Shown: piece by piece, positions 1,330-64,000 of the stretch | Layout of the letters: each line of letters starts with the position of its first letter | Position numbering within the stretch: the stretch's first letter is position 1 | NCBI GenBank assembly: GCA_041665025.1 | Contig: JBAYJP010000005.1 | Location: 11,056 to 75,055, forward strand | DNA: 64,000 bases | Direction: 5' to 3' | Source of the DNA: Candidatus Magasanikiibacteriota bacterium | GTDB taxonomy: Bacteria; Patescibacteriota; Patescibacteriia; Magasanikbacterales; UBA922 | Position numbers and translations under genes: made by a program | Notes under the pieces: generated by a model | Told to the model about the DNA's origin: nothing | Database searches by the model: none | The model's input: the letters and a program-made list of their open reading frames with translations, nothing else

Positions 1330-2697
1330 ATGCCTATTGTATCCCACAATCCAACGACAGGAAAAGATATACAGTCATTTGAAGAACTTTCAATTGATGA
1401 AATTAACGCACGCATAGAATTATCACAGAGCGCATTTCAACATTGGCGTATTGTTTCGTTTGCAGAGCGTTCAGAAAAAATGCATACGCTTGCGACATTA
1501 TTACGTGAAAAAAAATATGAACTGGGTAAACTCGCAACTCTTGAAATGGGTAAGCCTATTACTCAAGCCGTGGGAGAAATAGAAAAATGCGCATGGGCAT
1601 GTGACTATTATGCAGACGATGCAGAGCATATGCTTGCACCCGAACATGTTTCTGCGGATTACGCAGAAAGTTATATACGTTTTGATCCTTTGGGAGTTAT
1701 ACTTGCGATAATGCCGTGGAATTTTCCGTATTGGCAGGTATTTCGGTTTGTAGCACCCGCGCTCATGGCAGGGAATGTTGGTCTGCTCAAACATGCATCA
1801 AATGTTCCCCAATGCGCGCGTGCTATTGAACATATAATTGAGGAAACGGGTTTTCCAAAAGGCGTATTTCAAACACTTCTGGTTGGTTCTGCGAAAGTTG
1901 AACATATTATCGCGCATGACTATGTGCAAGCAATTACGCTTACGGGAAGTGAACACGCAGGGTCTGTGTCTGCGTCGCAAGCCGCAAAGCTTATTAAAAA
2001 GTCGGTATTGGAATTGGGCGGTAGTGATCCATTTATTGTGTTATCTGATGCAGACATTGTGCGTACGTGTGAATTTGCGACAGCTGCGCGCTTGCAAAAC
2101 GCGGGACAAAGCTGTATTGCAGCCAAACGTTTTATCGTCGTTGAGGATCGTTACGACGAATTTATTCAAAATTATCGTGAACAATTTAGCCGATATATTG
2201 TTGGCGATCCTATGGACGAAAAAACTCAGCTTGGCCCTGTTGTTTCTCAGGCAAGTATAGAAGAATTGAAACGCCAGATTAACGAGAGTGTTTTGAAAGG
2301 CGCTGAAATCGTATACGGCGGAAAACAATTAGATAGAGCTGGTTATTTTTTTGAACCAACAATTGTTTCGCATGTAACCAAAGGAATGCCTTTGTATGAC
2401 GAGGAAGCATTTGGGCCAGTAAGTGCAGTGATCATTGTGCACGATGAAGAAAAAGCAATACAAGTAGCCAATGATACGCGTTTTGGTTTGGGAGCGTCTA
2501 TTTGGACAAAAGATATTGAAAAAGCACAAAAACTTGCATCTCATATTGAGGCAGGTAGTGTGTTTATTAATGGCATGGTAAAATCTGATCCCCGGCTTCC
2601 ATTTGGCGGAATAAAAAAATCTGGTTTTGGACGAGAATTATCACATTATGGAATAAAAGAATTTGTAAATGTAAAAACAGTGGTAGTAAATAAATGA
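1330..2697 (+). CDS. NAD(P)-dependent aldehyde dehydrogenase, succinate-semialdehyde dehydrogenase-like
   Basis: 455 aa. ALDH family motifs LELGGSDPFIV, catalytic Cys region QNAGQSCIAAKRF, and C-terminal PFGGIKKSGFGRE. TGA stop. Confidence 0.8.
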   Translation: MPIVSHNPTTGKDIQSFEELSIDEINARIELSQSAFQHWRIVSFAERSEKMHTLATLLREKKYELGKLATLEMGKPITQAVGEIEKCAWACDYYADDAEHMLAPEHVSADYAESYIRFDPLGVILAIMPWNFPYWQVFRFVAPALMAGNVGLLKHASNVPQCARAIEHIIEETGFPKGVFQTLLVGSAKVEHIIAHDYVQAITLTGSEHAGSVSASQAAKLIKKSVLELGGSDPFIVLSDADIVRTCEFATAARLQNAGQSCIAAKRFIVVEDRYDEFIQNYREQFSRYIVGDPMDEKTQLGPVVSQASIEELKRQINESVLKGAEIVYGGKQLDRAGYFFEPTIVSHVTKGMPLYDEEAFGPVSAVIIVHDEEKAIQVANDTRFGLGASIWTKDIEKAQKLASHIEAGSVFINGMVKSDPRLPFGGIKKSGFGRELSHYGIKEFVNVKTVVVNK

Positions 2698-2745
2698 TGT
2701 TTTGACAAATTAGATTATAATTTATACATTTGTTAATGATAAAAA

Positions 2746-2785
2746 AACAACCTCGATTGATTCGAGATTGTTTTTATTTTTCTTC
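2746..2785. terminator. Hairpin aacaacctcga-ttgat-tcgagattgtt flanked by an A-run on the left and a T-run on the right. Bidirectional terminator candidate.
   Basis: 11 bp stem with 1 mismatch and a 5 nt loop. TTTTTATTTTT follows on the plus strand and AAAAAAA precedes it, which is the T-run for the minus strand. Confidence 0.4.
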
Positions 2786-2846
2786 CGCCCTCACATTTCT
2801 CTACAAATATATTTATAAAGAAAGGGGATTGGTAGGGCGGGAGAGA

Positions 2847-3140
2847 CTACTTTCTCTGGCAGACGCGGGAGATGGACTCCCACGTGTTGACGAGGAAGCC
2901 CTTGAGGCTTCTCAGGACGTGGAACGTGTAGTTCCACGTGTCTACGAATAGGGTGGCGAGAGGGCCGCCGAGGAGCTCGGCGGCGCAGCCGAAGAAGATT
3001 CCCTCGATCAGGAGGGCGGCGGGGAATTCAAGGAGTCCGAAGACTCCTCGTCGTTCGCAGGCGACCGCCGTGTAATAGGCGGCGATCCCGAACAGCGTTG
3101 TGAGCGCTAAGAGCGCTCGGATTTTCGCTTTGCGTTCCAC
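2847..3140 (-). CDS. Small GC-rich hydrophobic protein, possibly GlsB/YeaQ/YmgE-like. GTG start.
   Basis: About 96 aa with two hydrophobic segments separated by ERRGVFG. Codons are strongly G/C-ending (GCC, CTC, ATC, GGC), unlike the flanking genes. An AGGAGT Shine-Dalgarno sits 4 nt before GTG at 3138-3140. The six-frame ORF is longer (2847..3191). Confidence 0.5.
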   Translation of the reverse strand: MERKAKIRALLALTTLFGIAAYYTAVACERRGVFGLLEFPAALLIEGIFFGCAAELLGGPLATLFVDTWNYTFHVLRSLKGFLVNTWESISRVCQRK

Positions 3141-3173
3141 GCAGACTCCTTTTTTGCCAGGGTTTGAGAAAAA

Positions 3174-3202
3174 ACAATACCAGAAAAACATGATATTGTC
3201 AA
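3174..3202 (-). promoter_or_regulatory. Sigma70-like promoter for the small GC-rich gene (TTGACA-17-TATTGT on the minus strand)
   Basis: Reverse complement of 3197-3202 is TTGACA and of 3174-3179 is TATTGT, with a 17 nt spacer. Lies 35 to 60 nt upstream of the GTG. Confidence 0.4.
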
Positions 3203-3257
3203 TGAGTGTATTACGGTCTGGACTTTTTATCAGTTTTTTTGCGTTTTGTTATAAACA

Positions 3258-3287
3258 AAAACCCGATCGCTTATTGCGACCGGGTTT
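3258..3287 (-). terminator. Hairpin aaacccgatcgc-ttatt-gcgaccgggttt. Terminator candidate for the minus gene 3323..3700.
   Basis: 11 bp stem with 1 mismatch, followed by a T-rich tract on the minus strand (the A-run at 3253-3260 on the plus strand). Confidence 0.45.
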
Positions 3288-3322
3288 AGTCTAGTATGGG
3301 TGATATGGCCATAGCATCATAA

Positions 3323-3700
3323 TTACATGTCTTCTGTTTCTTTTGGCGTGTATAGCGCGCCCCACGAAGCAAGGATTAACACAATAATACCGAGCACAAG
3401 CGTATTAATATAGGCTACACGATTATCTGTAAAGCCGAGTATAAAAGGCGATAGTACGAGCCATAATCCTATTACTGCATTTGTCCAGCTTGGCCACCGC
3501 ACCTTGGTTCCTTCTTCTGTTTCTCGTAGCGCTGAAAGAGCTATTACTGCTATACCGAAAATAATGCTATTCCACAAAGCTGAAGTTACTTCGGTAAAAC
3601 TGAGGATGAAAGGTGACAAAATTAACCATACGCCAGCGACAATATCTACGCCGCTTGTGGTTTTTACATACATCCTTTGTTGTTGCATGGTTGTTGGCAT
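3323..3700 (-). CDS. Small membrane protein with two LSPFIL(S/G)F repeats, SPW-repeat-like
   Basis: Start is proposed at MPTTMQQQ, preceded by GGGGGGTGA. Two repeated TM segments WLILSPFILSF and WLVLSPFILGF. The ORF upstream of this Met is AT-rich and low-complexity. Confidence 0.45.
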   Translation of the reverse strand: MPTTMQQQRMYVKTTSGVDIVAGVWLILSPFILSFTEVTSALWNSIIFGIAVIALSALRETEEGTKVRWPSWTNAVIGLWLVLSPFILGFTDNRVAYINTLVLGIIVLILASWGALYTPKETEDM

Positions 3701-4065
3701 ATTTTTCACCCCCCTTCTAGTTAGAATTGGGTTATAGAGGTAGTATGGCGTCTTTTTCAAAGGTGTCAAGCATACATTACTGTAGGTCATCATGATTATG
3801 GTATTATTAACATAATTAATAATGTGGATAACCATATTTGACCGTTATGAACAGATGCATTACACTACATAAGTTATGAAACAAGTAATGTTTAGACAAA
3901 ATAATAACAATAATAACAGTCCGATCGGCGGAATGTGTTTTCTTGTTGGATAACTCCAACACCAGTCAACCTCAACACACAACCCGCCGTCACCGGCGGG
4001 TTTAACTATTTTTATACGGAGATATGGAATGAATGAGAAACACTGAAAAAGAAAACAAAATTTAT

Positions 4066-6093: not shown

Positions 6094-7176
6094 TTAACGT
6101 CTGTCTATCATAGGTCTCTCTTTTTCTGTACGCATTGCATGTAATATCTCGGTTTCTCTTATAACATCACCTTGTATTTCTCCACGTAAATTACCTTCGG
6201 CGAGCGCCCTCATTTCATCTCTATCATCAGTTCTACTCAAAATATAATTTGTTTTCATCATCAATTGCTGGAAATCAGGTACACCCCTCAAACGAATCCA
6301 ATCATTACTAGGTGGTTGATTCTCGTTATCAGCAAAAAATACCGTTTGGTCATGAGTTAAATCCCGCAGCATATGAAAGAACTTGCTTTCAGTAGTTAAT
6401 GGCGGGTCTTTGGGCAAATCATATAAAAGAATGGCATCTGCATCCCCACAGGCTTTCAATTTTGCTTCTATAGAACTCGCCAATTCTCCAGTAACTCGAA
6501 TGGGTACTATATTTTTTTGTTGCAAAGCATTAAAATGAAATTCTCCATCATCATGACGCAGTAATCTGTCCTCATCTACTTCAATACTACCAGCATTAAT
6601 TCTTGCTATAGGCTGTTCAGTAACCCCATCAAACGCATCTACATTACTTGCCGAATACTTACGTGCATGTGTACCCCGAAAGAGTTTTCCATGAAAACAG
6701 ACCGAGACTTCGTCAACAGGAGGAATTTCATTGCCTGAACGTGCTGCAACTTCAATTGCATCGAGCAAATTCCGCGGACCGTCAGAATCTTTCTCAGCAG
6801 CAGGGGTCATAGAGCCGGTAAATACAACAGGTCGCTTAAGCCCTTCCAATTGGTAACTCATCGCAGCAGCAGACGGACCCATGGTATCGGTACCAAAAAT
6901 TACCACAATTCCATCGTAATTTTGATGTGTTTCAGCAATGTTTTTAGCAAGTAGGTTATAGAATTCAAGATTAGCATCGGACGAGTCAATAAAACGACCA
7001 CCTGGCTTGAATTCCTCCCACTCCAAATTGTATGGGACATCCTGTAATTCAGGAATATTTTTTTGTAATTCTTCAAGTGTCCCTGGCTTTAAGCCTCCAT
7101 TTACAGAGGACGGTTTCATTCCTATCGTTCCTCCAGTATAGATTACGAGAATGTTCCTTTCATTTGGCTGTTTCAT
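6094..7176 (-). CDS. L-asparaginase family protein
   Basis: N-terminal ILVIYTGGTIGM (the asparaginase TGGTIAG motif) and a second conserved block GIVVIFGTDTM. 360 aa. Confidence 0.75.
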   Translation of the reverse strand: MKQPNERNILVIYTGGTIGMKPSSVNGGLKPGTLEELQKNIPELQDVPYNLEWEEFKPGGRFIDSSDANLEFYNLLAKNIAETHQNYDGIVVIFGTDTMGPSAAAMSYQLEGLKRPVVFTGSMTPAAEKDSDGPRNLLDAIEVAARSGNEIPPVDEVSVCFHGKLFRGTHARKYSASNVDAFDGVTEQPIARINAGSIEVDEDRLLRHDDGEFHFNALQQKNIVPIRVTGELASSIEAKLKACGDADAILLYDLPKDPPLTTESKFFHMLRDLTHDQTVFFADNENQPPSNDWIRLRGVPDFQQLMMKTNYILSRTDDRDEMRALAEGNLRGEIQGDVIRETEILHAMRTEKERPMIDRR

Positions 7177-14144: not shown

Positions 14145-14379
14145 ATGATATTGAAGATATTGGGATATTGGATATTAAAACAGCTCCGGAGAGGGGCTGT
14201 TTTTTGGTATTTTATTTCACTTAACTAGTAGTTATACTAAATATTTTTAAATATAATATAACTTTTTGTATATTATAGTAACAAAAACTCTCTCTACTAT
14301 ATACACATCCTCAGAACTTTTCAAATCGCAAATGTATGTGGATAATCAAAACAACCCGCCGCCTGGTGGGTTGTTGCTT

Positions 14380-14706
14380 TTATTTTTTAAGCTCGCATTT
14401 ACTCTCTACGCATGAGACATCATATGTGGGTGGCAGGCAAAAATAATCTGGACAAGCAATTGCGGCTGGATTATTTTTTCTGAAATTTTCTTCGCTTTCT
14501 CTTCCTTCTTTACTTATGGGAAATGTATTACACGTTAGACAAAATCCATGTAATTCATAAGATGTCGTGGTACAATCTTTGTCAGAATTACAGGATAGAT
14601 AATCAAATTGCTCTGCTGTATTTGTAGGATTATTGAGAGTTTTTTTCAGAGAACATCCGAGAGTAATGAATATCACAAGTGATGTAATGAGGAGTATTTT
14701 TTGCAT
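14380..14706 (-). CDS. Small Cys-rich lipoprotein
   Basis: Lipobox-like ITLGC after a hydrophobic signal; eight Cys in 108 aa. Confidence 0.4.
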   Translation of the reverse strand: MQKILLITSLVIFITLGCSLKKTLNNPTNTAEQFDYLSCNSDKDCTTTSYELHGFCLTCNTFPISKEGRESEENFRKNNPAAIACPDYFCLPPTYDVSCVESKCELKK

Positions 14707-40866: not shown

Positions 40867-41094
40867 AATAATATATTTACCTCCTTGATGAATAAAAATT
40901 TGTATCCAATTAGGTCTGATGTGACCATGGTACACACCAACGATCACGTGGATACACTATATTTTTACACGACAAGCATCGATGTAAAAATTTTTTTGTA
41001 AAAATATTTCTGATATTTTTACTTCGACCTTTATATATGTAGTTAGTATAGTTTGTTTTTGACTTTTTTTAAATATCAATGCAAGTGAAACTGT

Positions 41095-53536: not shown

Positions 53537-53833
53537 ATGGGTTTTGTCCAGAATAAAAAAGAACTTCTACAGATTTTATCGGGGATAAAAGATATTTCTT
53601 TAATGGAAAATTTTTTGAATGATTTGTTAACCCCTGCTGAAATAAAGGATATTGTAATGCGTTTGCAAATTGTTAAACTGTTGCATCAAGGCGTAACCCA
53701 GCGCGAAGTAGCAAAGAAACTCGGAGTGAGCATTTCAAAAGTAGAGCGGGGTGCGCGTGAATTGTTGGATAAAAAAGGAGGATTTGCGAAAATATTCCGT
53801 CTTCGTCCCACTAGGCGGGACTACGCCGGATAA
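53537..53833 (+). CDS. TrpR-related YerC/YecD-family DNA-binding protein
   Basis: LTPAEIKDIVMRLQIVKLLHQGVTQREVAKKLGVSISKVERG HTH typical of YerC/YecD. Confidence 0.55.
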   Translation: MGFVQNKKELLQILSGIKDISLMENFLNDLLTPAEIKDIVMRLQIVKLLHQGVTQREVAKKLGVSISKVERGARELLDKKGGFAKIFRLRPTRRDYAG

Positions 53834-53952
53834 ATTGGATATTTTTATGTATCGTAATATGTGTATACTATCTCGTGTCTGGCGATGGGCTTCTAGAGAT
53901 TAGCAAGCCCGATTTTGAGTTAGTATTATTTTAACTGCATCGGGTTTGCCCG

Positions 53953-55302
53953 ATGTTTTTGTATTTAGTCTTAATCGTAATCCTTATGAACAACTACCAC
54001 ATCAAACTTACAGAAAAAGATATCCCAGAGTCATATTTGAATCTTTCATATTATCTAGACAAATACTACGGCAAACTTCCTGATCCCCCGTTGCATCCGG
54101 GTACAAAACAACCTGCTGGCCCGCAAGATTTGTCCCCCATATTTCCGATGGGCGTGATTATGCAAGAAGTAAGCTTGGACGAGTTTATTCCTATCCCCGA
54201 CGAAGTGCGTGAATTATACAAAATGTTTCGTCCGTCTCCGCTTATTCGCGCGTATAGATTGGAAAAAGAATTGGACACGCCGGCGCATATCTATTACAAA
54301 TACGAAGGCGGCAATGCAACTGGTAGCCATAAATTAAATAGTGCTTTAGCCCAAGCATATTACAATAAGCAGGAAGGTGTTGAGACAATCGTGACTGAAA
54401 CGGGGGCAGGGCAGTGGGGTTCTGCGTTAAGCATCGCGTGCCATTATTTTGGGCTCAAGTGCAAAGTATTTATGGTGCGTATTTCATACGAGCAGAAGCC
54501 ATATCGTAAAGTGATTATGAAGATGTATGGATCAGACGTCTATTCAAGCCCTTCAATTCAAACAGAATATGGTCGTAAAGTTTTGGAACATGATCCAGAG
54601 ACGCCCGGTAGTCTTGGTATAGCTATTAGTGAAGCGCTCGAGCTTGCAGTACAAGATGAAAAAACAAAATACGCGCTTGGCAGTGTACTTAATCATGTCT
54701 TGCTTCATCAAACAGTAATTGGACAAGAAGCAAAAAAACAAATGGAACTTGCAGGAGAATATCCAGATATGGTAATCGGATGCTGTGGAGGAGGAAGCAA
54801 TTTCGCAGGCATTGCATTTCCATTTATTGCAGATACATTGTCTGGTGTGGAGACAAGCACTCGCTTTATTGGCGTAGAGCCGGTATCGTGTCCGTCGCTT
54901 ACCAAGGGAGAATACAAATACGATTTTGGTGATACTGCACAAATGACCCCACTTCTCAAAATGAAAACGTTAGGTTCGGATTTTATTCCAAGTAAGATTC
55001 ATGCAGGCGGACTTCGCTATCATGGTATGGCACCGCTTGTTTCGTTTTTGCATGAAGAAAAATTTATCGAAGCGCGCGCGTATGATCAATTGGAAGTATT
55101 TGAAGCAGGTACGCAGTTTGCGCGCACTGAAGGAATTATCCCGGCTCCGGAATCATCGCATGCAATAAAAGCAGCAATAGATGAGGCGATGAAGTGCAAA
55201 GAGAGCGGGGAAGAAAAAGTTATATTGTTTAATTTATCAGGGAATGGATTACTTGATTTGCAGGGATATGATGATTACTTAGCGGGGAAGTTGAGGAATT
55301 AA
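53953..55302 (+). CDS. TrpB-like PLP-dependent enzyme (tryptophan synthase beta-2 type)
   Basis: Long TrpB2-type N terminus. [11 protein letters not shown] is the PLP-lysine region and [16 protein letters not shown] the glycine-rich loop. Confidence 0.75.
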
Positions 55303-55304
55303 AA

Positions 55305-55330
55305 AACAACCTCGCTTTTGCAAGGTTGTC
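55305..55330. terminator. Hairpin caacct-cgcttttgca-aggttg preceded by an A-run. Shares the AAAAACAACCTCG left flank with the hairpin at 2746.
   Basis: T-run on the minus strand; lies 70 nt past the stop of the small GC-rich gene. Confidence 0.4.
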
Positions 55331-55399
55331 GTTCTTTCCTCTGTTTCCTGTAATCAAGAAACAAAGGAATGGAAGCTGGGAGGTAGGTCATTCCCCAGC

Positions 55400-55576
55400 T
55401 TAGCTCCGCTCGGGGGTGCGGAACAGGCGCCACTCGAGGATGGCGCCGACGATGCCAAAGGCAATGGCGCCGAGGATGGCACCAGGCTTGCCTTCGCCCG
55501 GTCCCACGAGTGTGGACAGCGCGGCGCCAGCAAAGGCACCGGCTACCGCCAAGTGGGAAGTAATCAGACCTTCCAC
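55400..55576 (-). CDS. GlsB/YeaQ/YmgE-like small membrane protein (Transgly_assoc-like), GC-rich with a GTG start
   Basis: VEGLITSHLAVAGAFAGAALSTLVGPGEGKPGAILGAIAFGIVGAILEW matches the YeaQ pattern PGKDGGG...ILGIVGA..GGW. AAGGAGG lies 6 nt before the GTG. Codons are strongly G/C-ending. Confidence 0.5.
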   Translation of the reverse strand: MEGLITSHLAVAGAFAGAALSTLVGPGEGKPGAILGAIAFGIVGAILEWRLFRTPERS

Positions 55577-55684
55577 GGTTTTCCTCCTTTCCGTGGAAGA
55601 ACACACTCGTTACTAAGCGGGATGTCCGTTTTTCACATGTGTGTTGTTGATAGTCTATACGTTTATAGATCTCTAGTCAAAGAT

Positions 55685-56077
55685 ATGAAAATAATATTAT
55701 TGGATATTTCACAACTCAAAACTCACGAAAAAACTTCTCCCAAACGTGTTAGAAAGGTTGTTGAATTGATCAAAAAGAAAGGCCAATTTATAAAGCCAAT
55801 TATTGTTGAAAAAAATACACATGTTATTCTCGATGGCCATCACCGTATCGAAGCATTAAAAAAATTAGGATACACAAGAGCGCCGTGTTTTTTGGTTGAT
55901 TATATGGATGATGAAGTGAGGGTTTATTTGAGAAGAAAAGATTTGCCCATGAATTTGATCAAGCAATTTATTTTGAGCGTTGCGTTGACTGATAATTCTT
56001 TTGAAAGGAAGACGACAAGACATTATATTCCGGATAGGAGAGGAAAGATACATGTGGCATTAGAGAAGTTGTTATGA
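55685..56077 (+). CDS. ParB/Srx-like nuclease-domain protein (small)
   Basis: MKIILLDISQLKTHEKTSPKRV...IILDGHHRIEALKKLGY. Start at the ATG at 55685. The six-frame ORF extends upstream through the antisense strand of the GC island. Confidence 0.5.
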   Translation: MKIILLDISQLKTHEKTSPKRVRKVVELIKKKGQFIKPIIVEKNTHVILDGHHRIEALKKLGYTRAPCFLVDYMDDEVRVYLRRKDLPMNLIKQFILSVALTDNSFERKTTRHYIPDRRGKIHVALEKLL

Positions 56078-56168
56078 ATTACAAAGATAAAATAATATGA
56101 ACCCATTTGTTTCTCTCTTGTATTTTTTTGCTTAGTTAACTACAATTAAAGCGCGAAGGACAAAATGT

Positions 56169-57407
56169 ATGAAATTATCAAAATTATTAATGGCTATCTG
56201 TATAAGCGCAATTTTCACCCTGGGCATTTTTGGTTTGCATCTGTCTGCTCCAAGCGTGATAAATAATTTTTCAGCAGATAGCAACCGGATTTCGGATGCC
56301 TTCGCAAAAGACATGTATGCATACCACCAAACAAACCCGGAGTTTGCCAGGCGCATAGTTACTTCTTCATTGATTGAAACAGTTCATGTGGTATGTGGCT
56401 TAGATTATGCCTACAGCTTTGTATGGGTAAATTTTAGTTTGTTATTTTTGTGCGGAATTATTTTGTATTATCTTGCGCGAAGTTTTTCACTGTCACATCG
56501 CACCTCACTTTTGACCGTTGCCTTATTTTATACAAGTTTTACTATTTTGTTTGCTTTTTTTGCAGATATTTTCAGCTACGACGACCCGCTGCAATATGTA
56601 TGTATATTCTTGACTATGCTTGCGCTATCGCATAGACAATGGTTTTTTGCTTCATGCGCGTGGTTTGTTGCAGTGTTTGCTCGCGAGACCTCAGTTTTAC
56701 TCATTCCCGGTTTGTTATTGTTATTTTGGTCCTCGCATATTACTCAAGAGTTGCCTCTAAGAAAAAAAATAATATATTTTGCTTTGACTTTTGGAGTTCC
56801 TATTGCGATGTATGTAGGACTTATATATATGTATTTGAGCCATATCAATTTTCTTGAAATGAGTTCGCAGTATTTCCAAAATGAACGCTGGTCGCATGTT
56901 GCTTTTAATTTTGGAAGTCTTCAACAAAGCAGTGAAACCATTATCTCGTTATTTCTGGCAAGTGGAATTATTGTCTACGCACTGTATCACTATATTGTCT
57001 CAGGTTTATCTACAGCTTTTGACAAAAAAGTCTTGCTTGCTTTTCTCATTACCAGCGCAATAAATATACCTCTTGTGTTGCTTGGAGCTCGGGCACGGGA
57101 AGTGCGGTTATTCGCATTTCCTCTTGTATTTATGTGGCCTTTTGCAGGTTGGTATGTGAGTAGGGTTCTCAAGGTTTTTCCGTTTAAAGAATATGTGGAA
57201 AGCTGGCGCAAGAGAGAACACCTCATTTCAAATACTATATTTTTAGTCTTTGGCCTCGTATTAATAGGTGTAGCGTACTTATTTTCTTGGTATGTATATC
57301 AACCGATTAGCAGTGCCGGCATATATTTTCAGATGTATATTTTTGTCCTCTTAGTGTTCGTGATTATTTATGAGCTCATTACTTTTCAGGTTAGAAGTGA
57401 TGTGTAG
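56169..57407 (+). CDS. Polytopic integral membrane protein of unknown function (possible GT-C/polymerase-like)
   Basis: At least 10 TM helices; no diagnostic motif. Confidence 0.35.
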   Translation: MKLSKLLMAICISAIFTLGIFGLHLSAPSVINNFSADSNRISDAFAKDMYAYHQTNPEFARRIVTSSLIETVHVVCGLDYAYSFVWVNFSLLFLCGIILYYLARSFSLSHRTSLLTVALFYTSFTILFAFFADIFSYDDPLQYVCIFLTMLALSHRQWFFASCAWFVAVFARETSVLLIPGLLLLFWSSHITQELPLRKKIIYFALTFGVPIAMYVGLIYMYLSHINFLEMSSQYFQNERWSHVAFNFGSLQQSSETIISLFLASGIIVYALYHYIVSGLSTAFDKKVLLAFLITSAINIPLVLLGARAREVRLFAFPLVFMWPFAGWYVSRVLKVFPFKEYVESWRKREHLISNTIFLVFGLVLIGVAYLFSWYVYQPISSAGIYFQMYIFVLLVFVIIYELITFQVRSDV

Positions 57408-57471
57408 TTTGCCTCTTGTTTTTATAGTCGAGTTTAGATACAATTTAAGTATAATTATTAAAAATTGAGTT

Positions 57472-57972
57472 ATGGCGAGACATTCTGAACTTAGGTTGGT
57501 ACCTCCACTGTCTGAAGATGAACGTAGTCCTGCTTTGCGTGTTATAAAAAAAGAGAGTAGGTTAAACTCTAAAGAGTTGGATGAATATAAGGAACCAAGT
57601 GAAAGAGAAAAAGAAGTTAGCAAGACAAAAAATAGAATCCTTGGTTGCCTTCAGCGCAAGGATGTTGATGGCTTGGTTTCGAATTTGGTTAAGCTGGACA
57701 AATTATTTGTAGGTCGAGATGAAACCATGCTTAGTAATAGTTCTGATGTTCTCAGATCTCAAGTAATAGGTTTTTTCGATAGTATTAAATTCCAGCAAAC
57801 ATTAAAAAATTATCATCTAGAATTGAAAATACAAATGTGTGAGGGGCAAATGGAATTGTTGCTTGGTGAAAATAAAAATGCAGGAAGTAAATTACCTGCT
57901 CAAATTATGTTAATGCAAGAAGGAAATACAGAAATATATATGGGGTCTAAAACATTAGAAACAGAAGATTAA
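57472..57972 (+). CDS. Hypothetical protein
   Basis: ORF only. Confidence 0.3.
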   Translation: MARHSELRLVPPLSEDERSPALRVIKKESRLNSKELDEYKEPSEREKEVSKTKNRILGCLQRKDVDGLVSNLVKLDKLFVGRDETMLSNSSDVLRSQVIGFFDSIKFQQTLKNYHLELKIQMCEGQMELLLGENKNAGSKLPAQIMLMQEGNTEIYMGSKTLETED

Positions 57973-57986
57973 CATAAGTTATGTAT

Positions 57987-59135
57987 ATGTCCAAAAAACA
58001 AATAATTGTCTCAGGTATTCAACCAACGGGCAATCTTCATATTGGAAATTATCTAGGCGCAGTGAAAAATTGGGTAGAACTGCAAAATTCTGGGAAATAT
58101 CAGATGTATATTTTTATTGCAGATTATCATTCACTCACGGGCAATATGAAGCCCAAAGAGCGCCGCGCACAGATTATGCGTACAGCCGCAGAACTTTTGG
58201 CAGCCGGAATTGATCCAGAGAAGACAGTTTTTTGGGTACAGTCTCATGTGCCAGAGCACACTGAATTGGCGTGGGTGTTTAACAGTATAACTCCAATAGG
58301 TGAATTAAAAAGGATGACACAGTTTAAGGATAAGGCAGGTATTAGCGATTATGAGGAAGTAATTGATGAAATTTATAAATATGAAAAAAATAGATTGATT
58401 TTAACTATACTTGCTGAGAGGATGGAAAAAAATAGTGTAAAATATAAGCAACAGAGAGACAAGGCGAAGGAACTTTTGAAAACTATTGAGAAATTAATAA
58501 TTCGGGAAGAGAACAAAGCAAATACCGGTCTTTTAACTTATCCTATTCTGCAAGCCGCAGATATTTTACTGTATCATGGCGAGATGGTACCTGTTGGCCA
58601 AGATCAAATTCAACATGTTGAACTAACTCGTGATGTCGCTCGATGGTTTAATAATCGATATAGCGATTATTTTCCTGAGACAAAACACCTTCTTACTCAC
58701 ATACCAAAAGTCATGAGTTTGGTTGAACCGCATAAAAAGATGAGCAAGAGTTTGGGTGCTGATCATGTGATAGAGCTTGCTGACGAGCCGAGTGTAATTG
58801 AGAAAAAACTCAAAAAAGCAGTGACTGCAACTGAAGGCGGAGGAGAAGCACCAGGCGTTGTTAATTTATTATCGTTATTAAAAGAATTCGGAAACAAAAA
58901 AGTTCATGATGAATTTGTAAAAGCAGAAAAAGATGGAACTATTCGTTATGGCGATTTGAAAAAAGTGCTTGGAGAATCAATTTCAACATATTTTGCAGAC
59001 TTTAGAAGTCGTCGAGCTGAATTGCTTGATAATCATGGTGAACTTGCAGAGATTCTTGGCAAAGGTGCGCAAAAAGCGCAACTAGTTGCGTCGAAGACAA
59101 TGGAAGATGTGAGAGGATTGATAGGAGTAAGATAA
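57987..59135 (+). CDS. trpS: Tryptophan--tRNA ligase with an insertion of about 50 aa
   Basis: HIGH-type QPTGNLHIGNY, YPILQAADIL and KMSKS. An extra segment lies between KDKAG and GLLTYP. Confidence 0.85.
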   Translation: MSKKQIIVSGIQPTGNLHIGNYLGAVKNWVELQNSGKYQMYIFIADYHSLTGNMKPKERRAQIMRTAAELLAAGIDPEKTVFWVQSHVPEHTELAWVFNSITPIGELKRMTQFKDKAGISDYEEVIDEIYKYEKNRLILTILAERMEKNSVKYKQQRDKAKELLKTIEKLIIREENKANTGLLTYPILQAADILLYHGEMVPVGQDQIQHVELTRDVARWFNNRYSDYFPETKHLLTHIPKVMSLVEPHKKMSKSLGADHVIELADEPSVIEKKLKKAVTATEGGGEAPGVVNLLSLLKEFGNKKVHDEFVKAEKDGTIRYGDLKKVLGESISTYFADFRSRRAELLDNHGELAEILGKGAQKAQLVASKTMEDVRGLIGVR

Positions 59136-61726: not shown

Positions 61727-64000
61727 ATGGCCATACGGAAAAAAGTTTTACCCCTATTTCTTTTTTCTATTTTATTTTTTTCATTAATTCCTTTTGTATC
61801 AGCCGACGCTCTCACATACGGATTTAAAGTGCAATCATGTACGCAAGATGTTGACGGAGCCTATTTTGTGGTGAATGGAAAAAGTTTGGTCATGAAAAAT
61901 GGATGTACAACAGGGACGAGCCAGATATATGGAATTGAATATACATGTCTCAGCAACACGCGTCTGAAAGTCGAATGGACAGACGAGTGTCCGGTCCAGA
62001 CTCCGGAACCTGAGCCATCTCCCGAACCTACACCCGAACCAACTCCAGCTCCTGCACCCACTCCGACGACAACACCAACACCAGAACCTACGCCAACACC
62101 CACTCAATCACAAGAAGAATATTTGTCTTTGCCGCAATATAGCAGTTTTTATGTGAGCGGTTCATCACAAGTAGTAAATGACACAGGATTTAATATTAGA
62201 AATGGGTGGGGCAATATTGAGCTCCGGTTAGATTATTCTCCCGCATTAAATTTTCAAACATACGAGTATCTTCAATTTACTATTGATTACAATCTTCAAT
62301 CAGGCACATCTGTTTCAGCGCAGACTATTAAACAGCCAACTGAATTGTATACCATGAGCGGATGGGGAAGTGCTCTAGAATCTACGCGGTATCTTTTGCC
62401 TGCAGAGACTACAAGTGGCAATGAGGTCACTGTCCGAGTTCCACTTCAGAGCCTCGTTTCAAGCGGATATAATTCAGCGTACATTAACCATTTATTTTTG
62501 AGATTTTATCCCAACGGAGGTCCAGCCAATATTGACGTAGTACTAAAAGATGTGAAATTAGTCCGTACCATTACGGTGCCGACCCCGGTTCCTGAACCAA
62601 CACCAGAACCTACACCAGTACCTACTCCAATTCCAGAACCTGAACCAACACCAACACCAACACCGGAGCCTGTCCCAGAACCAGAACCACTTCCTGCAAA
62701 TGCCATGGTTATTGACGCAACACAGACAAAAGTCCCGTATGTTGACCGTGGAGTCCTCGGTGGTAATTCAATGAACGATCGAGCATGGGATTATAATTTC
62801 GATATATTTACAGAACTTGGAGGTAATGCACAACCTGTAGGGAATAATCTTAATCGTCCTTTGTGGCGCATGCACATGTGGGACACGGGCGTTCATAAAA
62901 ATTATTGGATGTATGGACAAGGTTTCGGCCGTATGACTGATGGACTGTATAACCCCATGATTCCTCAGACAGATAATGGTCAGACAGTAAGTACGTATAG
63001 CTGGCAATTACAAAAACCAATGAAGGACATGCAAGTTCAATATCCGAGTGGCGAAACAACACAAAATTATTATGAAGTAGAATGGTTTGATCGTTCAGCG
63101 ACATTATCCGAAAAATTTAATCGACATGCTGTTAGTTACACCAAAAAGTCTGGCTCCACGACGCAAATTCATATCATTTCGAATCGAGAACAAACCGGTG
63201 TTACTACATTCCCTGAGCATGGCAGGTATACTCGTTTTGATTTCAAGTTATCTTCTGATGTTCAATACGCCGTGAATAGCGCCGCGCTTATTGGTAAGTC
63301 AAATCAATTTCAGATGGTACTTCGACCTGACAGAAAGTTTGAAATCCGTTTTGGAAATCAAACTGTTGTTTCTTCAGAGGTAGTTGAATTTGACCGATGG
63401 TATGGAATTGAAATATTAACTGATAATACTTCAAAAGTATGGGTTGATGGACAGATGATTGGACAAATAACATTATCATCGCTTGATATCACGCCAAGTG
63501 GTAGGTCAACAGATGTTCGATTTGGCACATTACTTAAGGATTGGGCACAAGATCCTACATTGAATGCGGAAACACAGCGTCAGGATTCATACAAATTCAA
63601 GATTGATGAACTTATGCTTGGTACATCATATTTTGGGACTAATCCTGATATGCCTCTTGATCAGACATTTGCAAATAAATACAAAAACGGAGTGATTGTG
63701 TGGCATAGTTTTGATAACAACATCATGACACTTGATGATTATGGTCAAATGGCAGAAAAAATGAACGCAGAATTGCTGTTACAACTTCCGTCTCCAAAAG
63801 AAACAACCTACGGGTCGCAATCAAATACGTGGACAGGGTTTTTCAAAGATTTATACAGCGTTGAAGGGCTGACCGCAATGATTAAATATATGGTCGGAAC
63901 GCCAGACGCAGACTATGTACAAAAAGTTGAAGAATTGAAACAAGCTGGATGGCCAGTTAATGTTGCCCAGTACAATTATGCAAACTTGCGTGCCAGTCGT
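61727..64000 (+). CDS. Large secreted multidomain protein with two Pro/Thr/Glu linkers (3' partial; runs off the window)
   Basis: Manual translation from the ATG at 61727 stays open to 64000 and is absent from the ORF track because no stop is reached. It has a signal peptide and the linkers PEPEPSPEPTPEPTPAPAPTPTTTPTPEPTPTPT and PTPVPEPTPEPTPVPTPIPEPEPTPTPTPEPVPEPEP. Confidence 0.55.
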   Translation, partial: MAIRKKVLPLFLFSILFFSLIPFVSADALTYGFKVQSCTQDVDGAYFVVNGKSLVMKNGCTTGTSQIYGIEYTCLSNTRLKVEWTDECPVQTPEPEPSPEPTPEPTPAPAPTPTTTPTPEPTPTPTQSQEEYLSLPQYSSFYVSGSSQVVNDTGFNIRNGWGNIELRLDYSPALNFQTYEYLQFTIDYNLQSGTSVSAQTIKQPTELYTMSGWGSALESTRYLLPAETTSGNEVTVRVPLQSLVSSGYNSAYINHLFLRFYPNGGPANIDVVLKDVKLVRTITVPTPVPEPTPEPTPVPTPIPEPEPTPTPTPEPVPEPEPLPANAMVIDATQTKVPYVDRGVLGGNSMNDRAWDYNFDIFTELGGNAQPVGNNLNRPLWRMHMWDTGVHKNYWMYGQGFGRMTDGLYNPMIPQTDNGQTVSTYSWQLQKPMKDMQVQYPSGETTQNYYEVEWFDRSATLSEKFNRHAVSYTKKSGSTTQIHIISNREQTGVTTFPEHGRYTRFDFKLSSDVQYAVNSAALIGKSNQFQMVLRPDRKFEIRFGNQTVVSSEVVEFDRWYGIEILTDNTSKVWVDGQMIGQITLSSLDITPSGRSTDVRFGTLLKDWAQDPTLNAETQRQDSYKFKIDELMLGTSYFGTNPDMPLDQTFANKYKNGVIVWHSFDNNIMTLDDYGQMAEKMNAELLLQLPSPKETTYGSQSNTWTGFFKDLYSVEGLTAMIKYMVGTPDADYVQKVEELKQAGWPVNVAQYNYANLRASR

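What the first reader, a model, noticed from the sequence alone, without database searches (positions are those of the whole stretch)
55305..55606. Second GC-rich cassette: GlsB/YeaQ/YmgE-like 58 aa membrane protein (copy 2)
The architecture matches copy 1: terminator hairpin on the left, GC-rich ORF on the minus strand, AAGGAGG 6 nt before a GTG. The protein LAVAGAFAGAALSTLVGPGEGKPGAILGAIAFGIVGAILEW matches the YeaQ/YmgE stress-protein pattern. Two copies of a foreign-codon stress-membrane-protein cassette, each placed right after a housekeeping gene terminator (the aldehyde dehydrogenase and trpB2), suggest a small mobile unit without any recognisable transposase, or a recent lateral import.
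Basis: partly seen in the sequence, partly recalled or inferred. Interest (0 to 1): 0.65.

Follow-up and report, generated by a model that had tools for sequence, protein, structure and literature searches.

The report
Foreign GC-rich orphan small membrane gene
A ~340-base, GC-rich piece of foreign-looking DNA carrying a self-contained gene for a 58-residue two-helix membrane peptide has been inserted into a conserved tryptophan-salvage gene junction of a Candidatus Magasanikbacteria (CPR) genome. It is an orphan with no detectable relatives. It is not a YeaQ/YmgE protein, and it is not a second copy of the other GC-rich island in the window.

Summary
The sequence observation holds. Window 55370-55615 reaches 70% GC in a 39.7% GC window. 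On the minus strand, AAGGAGG sits 6 nt before a GTG that opens a 58-codon ORF (55400-55576) encoding exactly the quoted peptide.

Transgly_assoc scores 10.2 bits against a cutoff of 25.3. "Copy 1" (2847-3140, 97 aa) shares no protein or DNA similarity beyond a terminator hairpin.

"Recent lateral import" is supported. Third-position GC is 0.73, against 0.29-0.40 in host genes. The gene has a canonical Shine-Dalgarno site and a GTG start in a genome whose genes almost never have a Shine-Dalgarno site. Two relatives (L081, 92% TrpB2 identity; L002) have trpB2 abutting the ParB-N/SerK-like gene with no island. The whole ~343 nt (55306-~55648), terminator included, is therefore a lineage-specific insertion.

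The protein is an orphan in searches of 5.8 billion clusters, 1.84 billion representatives, GTDB genomes, metagenome and viral contigs. It is predicted to be a Gly/Ala-rich helical hairpin.

Function is inferred only. Most likely it is a small oligomerising inner-membrane protein, possibly toxin-like given the start codon buried in a -14.7 kcal/mol hairpin. Interest is modest.

The parts
55306..55648 (-). Lineage-specific inserted segment (~343 nt) between the trpB2 stop codon and the remnant of the native spacer upstream of the ParB-N/SerK-like gene.
   Evidence: Homology with relative L081 ends at window 55305. L081 has only 42 nt between trpB2 and the ParB-like ATG. L002 has the two genes abutting. 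The right boundary is approximate: it rests on weak similarity of window GATAGTCTATACG... to the L081 spacer.
55305..55330 (.). Bidirectional intrinsic-terminator hairpin. On the minus strand it reads GACAACCTTGCAAAAGCGAGGTTGTT followed by TTTTAATT.
   Evidence: Found by the terminator scan with 11 pairs. Folding energy is -16.9 kcal/mol. It is absent from L081 and L002. It aligns with the island-1 terminator over 42 nt, score 31 against 14.5 +/- 2.2 in shuffles.
55336..55369 (.). AT-rich imperfect hairpin in the 3' untranslated spacer (TTCCTCTGTTTCCTG / CAAGAAACAAAGGAA).
   Evidence: Inverted repeat I1: 15-nt arms, 87% complementary. Function unknown.
55373..55401 (-). GC-rich hairpin (AAGCTGGG / CCCAGCTT) overlapping the TAA stop codon.
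   Evidence: Inverted repeat I15. Folding energy is -12.6 kcal/mol.
55400..55576 (-). ORF with GTG start, 58 codons and TAA stop. It encodes an orphan two-helix Gly/Ala-rich membrane peptide.
   Evidence: Translation is. GC1/2/3 are 0.70/0.56/0.73, G at codon position 1 is 0.47 and C at position 3 is 0.49. It is the only hydrophobic frame of the six. AlphaFold2 gives helix 2-23, loop, helix 31-53 at pLDDT 73.7. NCBI annotates it as hypothetical protein WCW16_04810.
55583..55589 (-). Shine-Dalgarno sequence AAGGAGG, 6 nt upstream of the GTG.
   Evidence: Only 2 of 46 long host ORFs have even a 4-mer Shine-Dalgarno core at the start of the longest ORF.
55570..55599 (-). Perfect 9-10 bp hairpin (CUUCCACGG / CCGUGGAAG). 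The Shine-Dalgarno sequence sits in the 12-nt loop and the GUG start codon sits inside the 3' arm.
   Evidence: Inverted repeat I10. Folding energy is -14.7 kcal/mol. It is present in both the MFE and the centroid fold.
55652..55680 (-). Candidate sigma-70-like promoter (TTGACT, 17 nt, TAGACT) for the small gene. This is weak evidence.
   Evidence: Consensus scan, 9 of 12 matches. The scan found 2 sites in the region against 0.8 expected.

Best explanation
Window 55306-~55648 is a lineage-specific insertion of compositionally foreign DNA. It carries one self-contained, monocistronic minus-strand gene.

Gene layout, 5' to 3' on the minus strand:
- a weak promoter-like site;
- a ~70-nt leader;
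- AAGGAGG;
- a GTG start and 58 codons;
- a stop codon embedded in a GC hairpin;
- a ~70-nt AT-rich spacer;
- a bidirectional intrinsic terminator.

The insertion landed in the otherwise tightly conserved trpB2 | ParB-N/SerK-like junction of a Candidatus Magasanikbacteria genome. It splits what is a contiguous gene string in relatives.

The product is an orphan small membrane protein. Two Gly/Ala-rich transmembrane helices (about residues 2-23 and 31-53) are joined by a GPGEGKPG turn and followed by a basic tail (RLFRTPERS). The helices carry small-xxx-small motifs.

Inferred mechanism:
- The peptide inserts as a helical hairpin with both ends in the cytoplasm.
- It self-associates through its glycine/alanine faces and acts in the membrane as a small oligomer that changes membrane properties or permeability.
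- Translation is probably held low, because the start codon is paired in a -14.7 kcal/mol hairpin.

Shown: composition, architecture, the insertion, orphan status and the predicted helical hairpin.
Inferred: expression, topology, oligomerisation, biological role and donor.
For: Composition and signals:
- The GC island reaches 0.70 against 0.397 for the window.
- GC3 is 0.73 and C3 is 0.49, against host values of 0.29-0.40 and 0.13. Codon choices are GCC/GGC/ATC/CTC where the host uses GCA/GGA/ATT/TTA.
- AAGGAGG lies 6 nt before a GTG. Among 46 long host ORFs, only 2 have a Shine-Dalgarno core at the longest-ORF start.
- Only this frame gives a hydrophobic product: mean hydropathy is +0.64 and the best 19-residue window is 1.82. 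All other frames are negative in mean hydropathy.
- G at codon position 1 is 0.47.
- AlphaFold2 predicts a helix-loop-helix at pLDDT 73.7.

Empty sites in relatives:
- L081 (TrpB2 C-terminus 92% identical, ParB-like protein 80%) has a 42-nt spacer, and homology stops at window 55305.
- L002 has trpR-trpB2-parB-like-trpS contiguous.

Assembly: the sequence is 100% identical in a 440-kb ENA contig and in a Logan contig.

Orphan status: only self-hits in the searches, and nothing.

Horizontal transfer into Patescibacteria from diverse phyla is documented (PMC12455944).
Against: - No homologue exists, so purifying selection on the ORF cannot be tested, and no donor can be named despite searches of very large databases.
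- The ORF length itself is uninformative in 65-70% GC DNA.
- The GC periodicity of this island is weak (0.70/0.56/0.73), unlike island 1 (0.58/0.45/0.80).
- The flanking terminator is host-like in style and AT-rich. That is odd for a freshly imported fragment and may mean the cassette has resided in, or moved within, related CPR genomes.
- The host rarely uses Shine-Dalgarno sites and the start codon is occluded, so expression is uncertain.
- The promoter call is weak.
Confidence: 0.6

Rival explanations
1. Type I toxin-like selfish module. The 58-aa hydrophobic peptide is a membrane-damaging toxin whose mRNA is kept translationally silent by structure. It would be countered by an antisense transcript, for example read-through from convergent trpB2 or an unrecognised sRNA. 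Such a compact locus can insert in intergenic DNA without mobility genes.
For: - The ORF is small (<60 aa), hydrophobic and has a charged C-terminal tail.
- Presence/absence differs between close relatives.
- The mRNA is strongly structured: z = -4.98 on the minus strand.
- The start codon is buried in a perfect 9-10 bp hairpin of -14.7 kcal/mol.
- A 9-nt leader-to-coding pairing exists, ACGAGUGUG/CACACUCGU (I9).
- The gene is convergent with trpB2, so leaky termination would give antisense RNA.
Against: - No antisense promoter or terminator was found on the plus strand.
- The protein has two helices rather than the usual single helix of type I toxins.
- There are no tandem duplicates and no match to any known toxin family.
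- Much of the folding energy can be explained by repeated GGCGCC (Gly-Ala) palindromes (D1/I17/I18).
- The plus strand also folds well, z = -2.94.
Confidence: 0.15
2. Inert captured DNA. A random ~250-bp fragment from a high-GC community member was integrated by illegitimate recombination, for example after DNA uptake. It is not expressed as a functional protein, and the ORF is a relic or a by-product of low stop-codon density.
For: - Four of six frames are open across the island.
- No homologue exists anywhere.
- The host mostly lacks Shine-Dalgarno-led initiation.
- The start codon is occluded.
- A second, unrelated GC-rich orphan island with the same codon bias exists at 2847-3140.
Against: - A random fragment would rarely carry a 7-nt perfect Shine-Dalgarno sequence at the optimal 6-nt spacing from a start codon that opens the only hydrophobic frame, with a stop inside a hairpin, a downstream terminator and an upstream promoter-like site.
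- Both islands show the same complete gene architecture.
Confidence: 0.15
3. Structured non-coding RNA. A GC-rich long intergenic region in an AT-rich genome is a classic signature of structured ncRNA. On this reading the ORF is incidental.
For: - The intergenic region is 382 nt with GC up to 0.70 in a 40% GC genome.
- The minus-strand fold has z = -4.98 and no shuffle folds as well.
Against: - No Rfam family matches at the gathering score, nor convincingly at E<=10.
- No homologous sequences exist to test covariation.
- Codon-position signals (G1 0.47, C3 0.49), the Shine-Dalgarno plus GTG, and a clean two-helix hydrophobic product favour coding.
- Fold stability is partly explained by palindromic GGCGCC codon pairs.
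Confidence: 0.07
4. Assembly chimera or contamination. GC-rich reads from another organism were mis-joined into the MAG contig.
For: The source is a MAG, and the composition switches abruptly.
Against: - The same 1001 bases, including both junctions, are 100% identical in the ENA MEGAHIT contig k141_138385 (440 kb). 990 of them are identical in a Logan contig from run SRR6484324.
- The island sits exactly in an intergenic space with matching gene signals.
- The two assemblies may derive from the same reads, so this is assembler independence, not sample independence.
Confidence: 0.03

Closest known systems
GlsB/YeaQ/YmgE family (Pfam Transgly_assoc PF04226; NCBIfam PRK10457)
   Same: It is a small, Gly-rich, hydrophobic membrane protein with GxxxG-like spacing.
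   Different: It fails the family models: 10.2 bits against 25.3, and 15.6 against 129. It has two predicted helices in 58 aa, and the PRK10457 model is 82 positions long. From my own knowledge, YeaQ/YmgE proteins have three helices in about 82-84 aa. The resemblance is compositional.
Glycine-zipper small membrane domains (Gly-zipper_YMGG PF13441, Gly-zipper_Omp PF13488, Rick_17kDa_Anti PF05433; YiaD/SlyB-type)
   Same: It has a helix-turn-helix hairpin of Gly/Ala-rich helices. These families give the best generic matches, over residues 11-47.
   Different: All matches are below threshold: 14.5, 12.0 and 8.9 bits against 28.9, 25 and 24.2. There is no lipoprotein signal and no OmpA-type partner domain.
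DUF6223 (PF19733)
   Same: This is the top Pfam hit, aligning both helices.
   Different: It scores 15.2 bits (18.6 with the unlikely 68-aa start) against 27.4. The profile is 98 positions and only its C-terminal half aligns. No independent support.
Type I toxin-antitoxin toxins (Hok, TxpA, Fst, Ldr classes)
   Same: The locus is a compact intergenic module whose presence varies between relatives. The peptide is hydrophobic and under 60 aa, and the mRNA is structured with an occluded translation start.
   Different: No antisense RNA gene was identified. The peptide has two helices instead of one. There is no sequence-family match. It has foreign GC-rich codon usage.
Integron gene cassettes
   Same: It is a short, single-ORF, orphan unit of foreign composition with no mobility gene of its own.
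   Different: No attC-like R''/R' core sites occur in or around either island. No integrase or cassette array is present. The unit carries its own terminator and a promoter-like site.

Membership tests
GlsB/YeaQ/YmgE (Transgly_assoc, PF04226) | Scores at or above the Pfam gathering threshold for PF04226 | tested here: not met
   10.2 bits, E 0.91, against a cutoff of 25.3
GlsB/YeaQ/YmgE (Transgly_assoc, PF04226) | Matches the NCBIfam model aligned here (PRK10457, 82 positions), which I take to be the YeaQ/YmgE-type model | tested here: not met
   15.6 bits against a cutoff of 129
GlsB/YeaQ/YmgE (Transgly_assoc, PF04226) | About 80 aa with three transmembrane helices (from general knowledge of YeaQ/YmgE) | tested here: not met
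   58 aa; AlphaFold2 gives two helices, 2-23 and 31-53
Glycine zipper 2TM / YMGG-like (PF05433, PF13441, PF13488) | Scores at or above the Pfam gathering thresholds | tested here: not met
   8.9, 14.5 and 12.0 bits against 24.2, 28.9 and 25
Glycine zipper 2TM / YMGG-like (PF05433, PF13441, PF13488) | Two Gly-rich helices with (G/A)xxx(G/A) repeats forming a hairpin | tested here: met
   The motifs GAFAGAA and GAILGAIAFGIVGA are read directly; the hairpin model is. This is a shared architecture, not evidence of homology.
   BLASTP finds no alignment at E<=100
   The 3' terminator hairpins align over 42 nt: 14 nt are identical, score 31 against shuffles of 14.5 +/- 2.2. The 5' regions are unrelated: 1694 of 2000 shuffles score as well. 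The same outer stem occurs in a host gene's terminator at 14350. No empty site was found for island 1.
Type I toxin-antitoxin | Small hydrophobic toxin ORF in an intergenic region | tested here: met
Type I toxin-antitoxin | Cis- or trans-encoded antisense RNA antitoxin | tested here: inconclusive
   No plus-strand promoter or terminator was detected across the ORF. The promoter rules of this phylum are unknown, and no transcript data are available.
Type I toxin-antitoxin | Toxicity on expression | not testable with these tools
   Needs an experiment.
Integron gene cassette | attC site with an RYYYAAC ... GTTRRRY core | tested here: not met
   0 matches within 55150-55800 or 2600-3400 on either strand
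Known structured RNA families (Rfam 15) | Covariance-model match at the gathering score | tested here: not met
   The window contains only 4 tRNAs. The best sub-threshold hit that lies inside the GC island is 15.1 bits against 125.8; the higher sub-threshold scores (21 bits against 43-60) fall on the AT-rich terminator flank.

The most novel reading that the evidence does not exclude
The two islands may belong to an unrecognised kind of autonomous micro-cassette. Each has a promoter-like site, a strong Shine-Dalgarno sequence, a GTG start, a small transmembrane ORF with C3-rich foreign codons, and a host-style terminator, in roughly 350-450 bp. Such cassettes would be captured by CPR bacteria into operon junctions without any recombinase gene. 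They could be toxin-like addiction modules or membrane peptides taken from a high-GC host or neighbour. Their GC richness would be maintained rather than merely not yet eroded.
Probability: 0.1. Interest if true: 0.6.

Novelty: new member of a known kind. Interest (0 to 1): 0.3.

Why it matters
If real and expressed, this shows that ultra-small CPR genomes can pick up and keep tiny single-gene units of clearly foreign composition, even inside a conserved operon junction (trpB2 | ParB-N/SerK-like gene) and with no mobility gene. Gene callers can also miss such units: the annotations on record for the ENA and Logan contigs list no gene here, whereas NCBI's annotation does. The codon usage and Shine-Dalgarno signature could be used to search for donors or physical partners of the organism. 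Beyond that it is one more orphan small membrane protein. Nothing here bears on a long-standing open question.

Tried and rejected
- YeaQ/YmgE membership: rejected by Pfam and NCBIfam scores.
- "Copy of island 1": rejected by BLASTP, MAFFT and blastn.
- Homologue and donor searches, all empty apart from self-hits: word-indexed search of 5.8 billion clusters; exhaustive phmmer over 1.84 billion representatives; back-translated pattern scans of GTDB genomes, JGI metagenomes and IMG/VR (island 1); blastn against plasmids and phages; PHROGs, PADLOC and PDB sequences.
- The two phmmer hits at E~1e-4 (P0004, P0005) are translations of tandem repeats whose score comes from 5 repeated stretches. I treat them as not homologous.
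- Known ncRNA: nothing in Rfam.
- Target-site duplication: the 12-nt near-repeat TTACTTAGCGGG/TTACTAAGCGGG (D8) is at the level expected by chance (about 0.4 expected in 600 nt, my estimate).
- Terminal inverted repeats: only a 6-mer, AACAAC/GTTGTT, which is not significant.
- Integron attC sites: none.
- Empty site for island 1: the 75%-identical aldehyde dehydrogenase relative (L082) has a different downstream context, so there is no answer.
- A third island: none in the 7.5 kb beyond the window end.
- Exact-product look-ups of the small protein and of the long-ORF TrpB2 found nothing, because the gene calls on record differ.

Full report
**What is there**

The window averages 39.7% GC and contains only two sharp GC-rich islands, at 2821-3170 and 55311-55640 (peaks 0.67 and 0.70 in 150-nt windows). 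The island in question lies in the 382-nt space between the stop of a TrpB2-type tryptophan synthase beta gene (53953-55302, plus strand) and the ATG (55685) of a 130-aa ParB-N-domain protein.

On the minus strand, AAGGAGG (55589-55583) is followed after 6 nt by a GTG (55576-55574). This opens a 58-codon frame ending in TAA at 55402-55400. NCBI's annotation of the source MAG calls the same 58-aa protein: MFA6427728.1, WCW16_04810, Candidatus Magasanikbacteria bacterium.

**Is it a gene?**

ORF length alone proves nothing, because four of the six frames are open across the island. The following evidence favours coding:

- A perfect 7-nt Shine-Dalgarno sequence sits at ideal spacing.
- This is the only frame of six whose product is hydrophobic. 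Its mean hydropathy is +0.64 and its best 19-residue window is 1.82; all other frames have negative means.
- G makes up 47% of first codon positions and C makes up 49% of third positions.
- The stop codon sits in a GC hairpin (-12.6 kcal/mol), followed about 70 nt later by a strong terminator (-16.9 kcal/mol).
- AlphaFold2, run without an alignment, gives helix 2-23, a 7-residue turn and helix 31-53 at mean pLDDT 73.7.

The RNA folds better than shuffles on the minus strand (z = -4.98) but also on the plus strand (z = -2.94). Repeated GGCGCC (Gly-Ala) palindromes explain much of this. Rfam gives nothing. I therefore rate a non-coding RNA as unlikely, though it is not excluded.

**Foreignness**

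Third-position GC is 0.73, against 0.29-0.40 in eight neighbouring host genes. The gene uses GCC, GGC, ATC and CTC, where the host uses GCA, GGA/GGT, ATT and TTA/CTT/TTG.

Only 2 of 46 long host ORFs have even a 4-nt Shine-Dalgarno core before the start of the longest ORF. A few alternative starts do have one, for example GGAGGA-9-ATG at 7134. Otherwise, the strong Shine-Dalgarno hexamers that precede an independent intergenic ORF are those of the two GC islands, plus one AAGGAGGT about 13 nt before an ATG near 40886 that I did not follow up.

**It is an insertion**

- A metagenome contig from a close relative (L081, Ga0172379_10011709) has a TrpB2 C-terminus 92% identical and a ParB-like protein 80% identical. 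Only 42 nt separate the two genes there. DNA homology with the window stops at 55305, right after the shared TAAAAA.
- A more distant Patescibacteria genome (L002) has trpR-trpB2-parB-like-trpS contiguous.
- A Saccharibacteria contig (L067) has the ParB-like gene abutting trpB2 on the other side.

About 343 nt (55306 to roughly 55648) are therefore new in this lineage. That includes the "trpB2 terminator", which belongs to the insert rather than to the housekeeping gene.

The 1001 bases tested around the island, with both junctions, are 100% identical in the 440-kb ENA MEGAHIT contig, and 990 of them are identical in a Logan contig. This argues against an assembler artefact. The reads may, however, be the same.

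**Family membership**

All family models are far below threshold:

| Model | Score (bits) | Cutoff (bits) |
|---|---|---|
| Transgly_assoc (PF04226) | 10.2 | 25.3 |
| Gly-zipper_YMGG (PF13441) | 14.5 | 28.9 |
| DUF6223 (PF19733) | 15.2 | 27.4 |
| NCBIfam PRK10457 | 15.6 | 129 |

The similarity to YeaQ/YmgE is compositional: Gly/Ala-rich helices.

Searches for relatives returned only the protein itself:

- 5.8 billion clusters;
- an exhaustive phmmer over 1.84 billion representatives, where the two E~1e-4 hits are translated tandem repeats;
- GTDB genomes, JGI metagenomes and IMG/VR;
- plasmids and phages;
- PHROGs, PADLOC and PDB.

It is an orphan.

**Relation to "copy 1"**

Island 1 (ORF 2847-3140, minus strand, AAGGAG then GTG, 97 aa, GC1/2/3 of 0.58/0.45/0.80) is also an orphan. 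It shares the C-rich third-position bias (0.56).

The two proteins show no alignment at all. The DNA is unrelated, and so are the 5' regions.

The one shared element is the terminator hairpin. Fourteen nt (AAAAAACAACCTCG, at 2742 and 55301) are identical within a 42-nt alignment that no shuffle out of 2000 reached. A terminator with the same outer stem (AACAACC...GGTTGTT) serves an ordinary AT-rich host gene at 14350-14375.

I read this as the host's terminator style, not a mobile-element end. It remains odd that a host-style terminator is part of the inserted segment.

No target-site duplication, terminal inverted repeats or attC-like sites were found. The islands are therefore two independent, similarly built imports, possibly from donors with similar codon usage. 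They are not two copies of one cassette.

**How it probably works (inference)**

- The peptide would insert as a helical hairpin. The basic tail and the N-terminus would face the cytoplasm.
- It would pack or oligomerise through its small-xxx-small faces.
- The leader forms a perfect 9-10 bp hairpin (-14.7 kcal/mol). The hairpin displays the Shine-Dalgarno sequence in its loop but pairs the GUG, which suggests restrained translation.
- Together with the variable presence of the locus among relatives, this resembles type I toxin loci. I found no antisense gene, and two helices are atypical for that class.

| Explanation | My rating |
|---|---|
| Expressed accessory membrane protein of foreign origin | ~0.6 |
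| Type I toxin-like module | ~0.15 |
| Inert captured DNA | ~0.15 |
| Non-coding RNA | ~0.07 |
| Assembly chimera | ~0.03 |

**Verdict**

The family assignment and the "second copy" idea are not. Horizontal transfer into Patescibacteria is documented (PMC12455944), and orphan small membrane genes are common, so this is a new member of a known kind. Interest is modest (0.3). Its main value is as a clean example of a tiny foreign gene splitting a conserved operon junction in a CPR genome.

Noticed in passing
window 53537-59135; L002 5641-8698; L067 5621-7305; L081 1-843: A conserved CPR gene string: a TrpR-like repressor (53537-53833), TrpB2 (53953-55302), a 130-aa ParB-N protein (55685-56077) and TrpRS (57981-59135). 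The best NCBIfam hits of the ParB-N protein are the N-terminal part of ADP-dependent L-serine kinase SerK (74.7 bits, partial) and SbnI. The ParB-like gene abuts trpB2 in three other Patescibacteria contigs. TrpB2 enzymes are reported to use O-phospho-L-serine (Busch et al. 2014, cited in PMC11917138). The small ParB-N protein could therefore be the serine kinase that feeds TrpB2 in an indole-salvage route. It covers only positions 16-98 of the 244-position SerK model.
   Followed up: partly
window 2825-3145 (ORF 2847-3140, minus strand): This is the other GC-rich island. AAGGAG lies 5-6 nt before a GTG, and the 97-aa hydrophobic product is an orphan (NCBI calls a 114-aa version, WCW16_04555). 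GC1/2/3 are 0.58/0.45/0.80 and C3 is 0.56. It is unrelated in sequence to the 58-aa protein but built the same way, with a related terminator hairpin about 75 nt after the stop. No empty site was found in relatives.
   Followed up: partly
whole window (46 long ORFs): Host genes almost never have a Shine-Dalgarno motif upstream of the longest-ORF start (2 of 46). Exceptions using alternative starts include GGAGGA-9-ATG at 7134 (minus strand) and AAGGAGGT about 13 nt before an ATG near 40886 (minus strand). True start sites were not verified.
   Followed up: partly
window 14350-14375, 2743-2775, 55305-55330: Three bidirectional terminators share the outer stem (A)ACAAYC...GRTTGT(T). One of them belongs to an ordinary AT-rich host gene (14380-14706, minus strand). 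This may be a genome-specific terminator 'dialect' or a small dispersed hairpin family.
   Followed up: partly
window 56169-57972: Two genes without family matches lie between the ParB-like gene and trpS: a 412-aa multi-pass membrane protein and a 166-aa protein. They are absent from that position in L002, where trpS follows directly. This is a second lineage-specific difference in the same cluster.
   Followed up: no
window ~61727-64000 (L086 11517-14777): A large plus-strand gene (1086 aa in the ENA annotation, ASD1_dom) runs off the window end. It has low-complexity stretches that read as GVGSG repeats on the opposite strand, and these account for the mild GC peak at 61941-62120.
   Followed up: no
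window 3323-3835 (minus strand): An SPW-repeat membrane protein (PF03779, 88 bits) lies convergent with the island-1 side of the 626-nt intergenic region.
   Followed up: no
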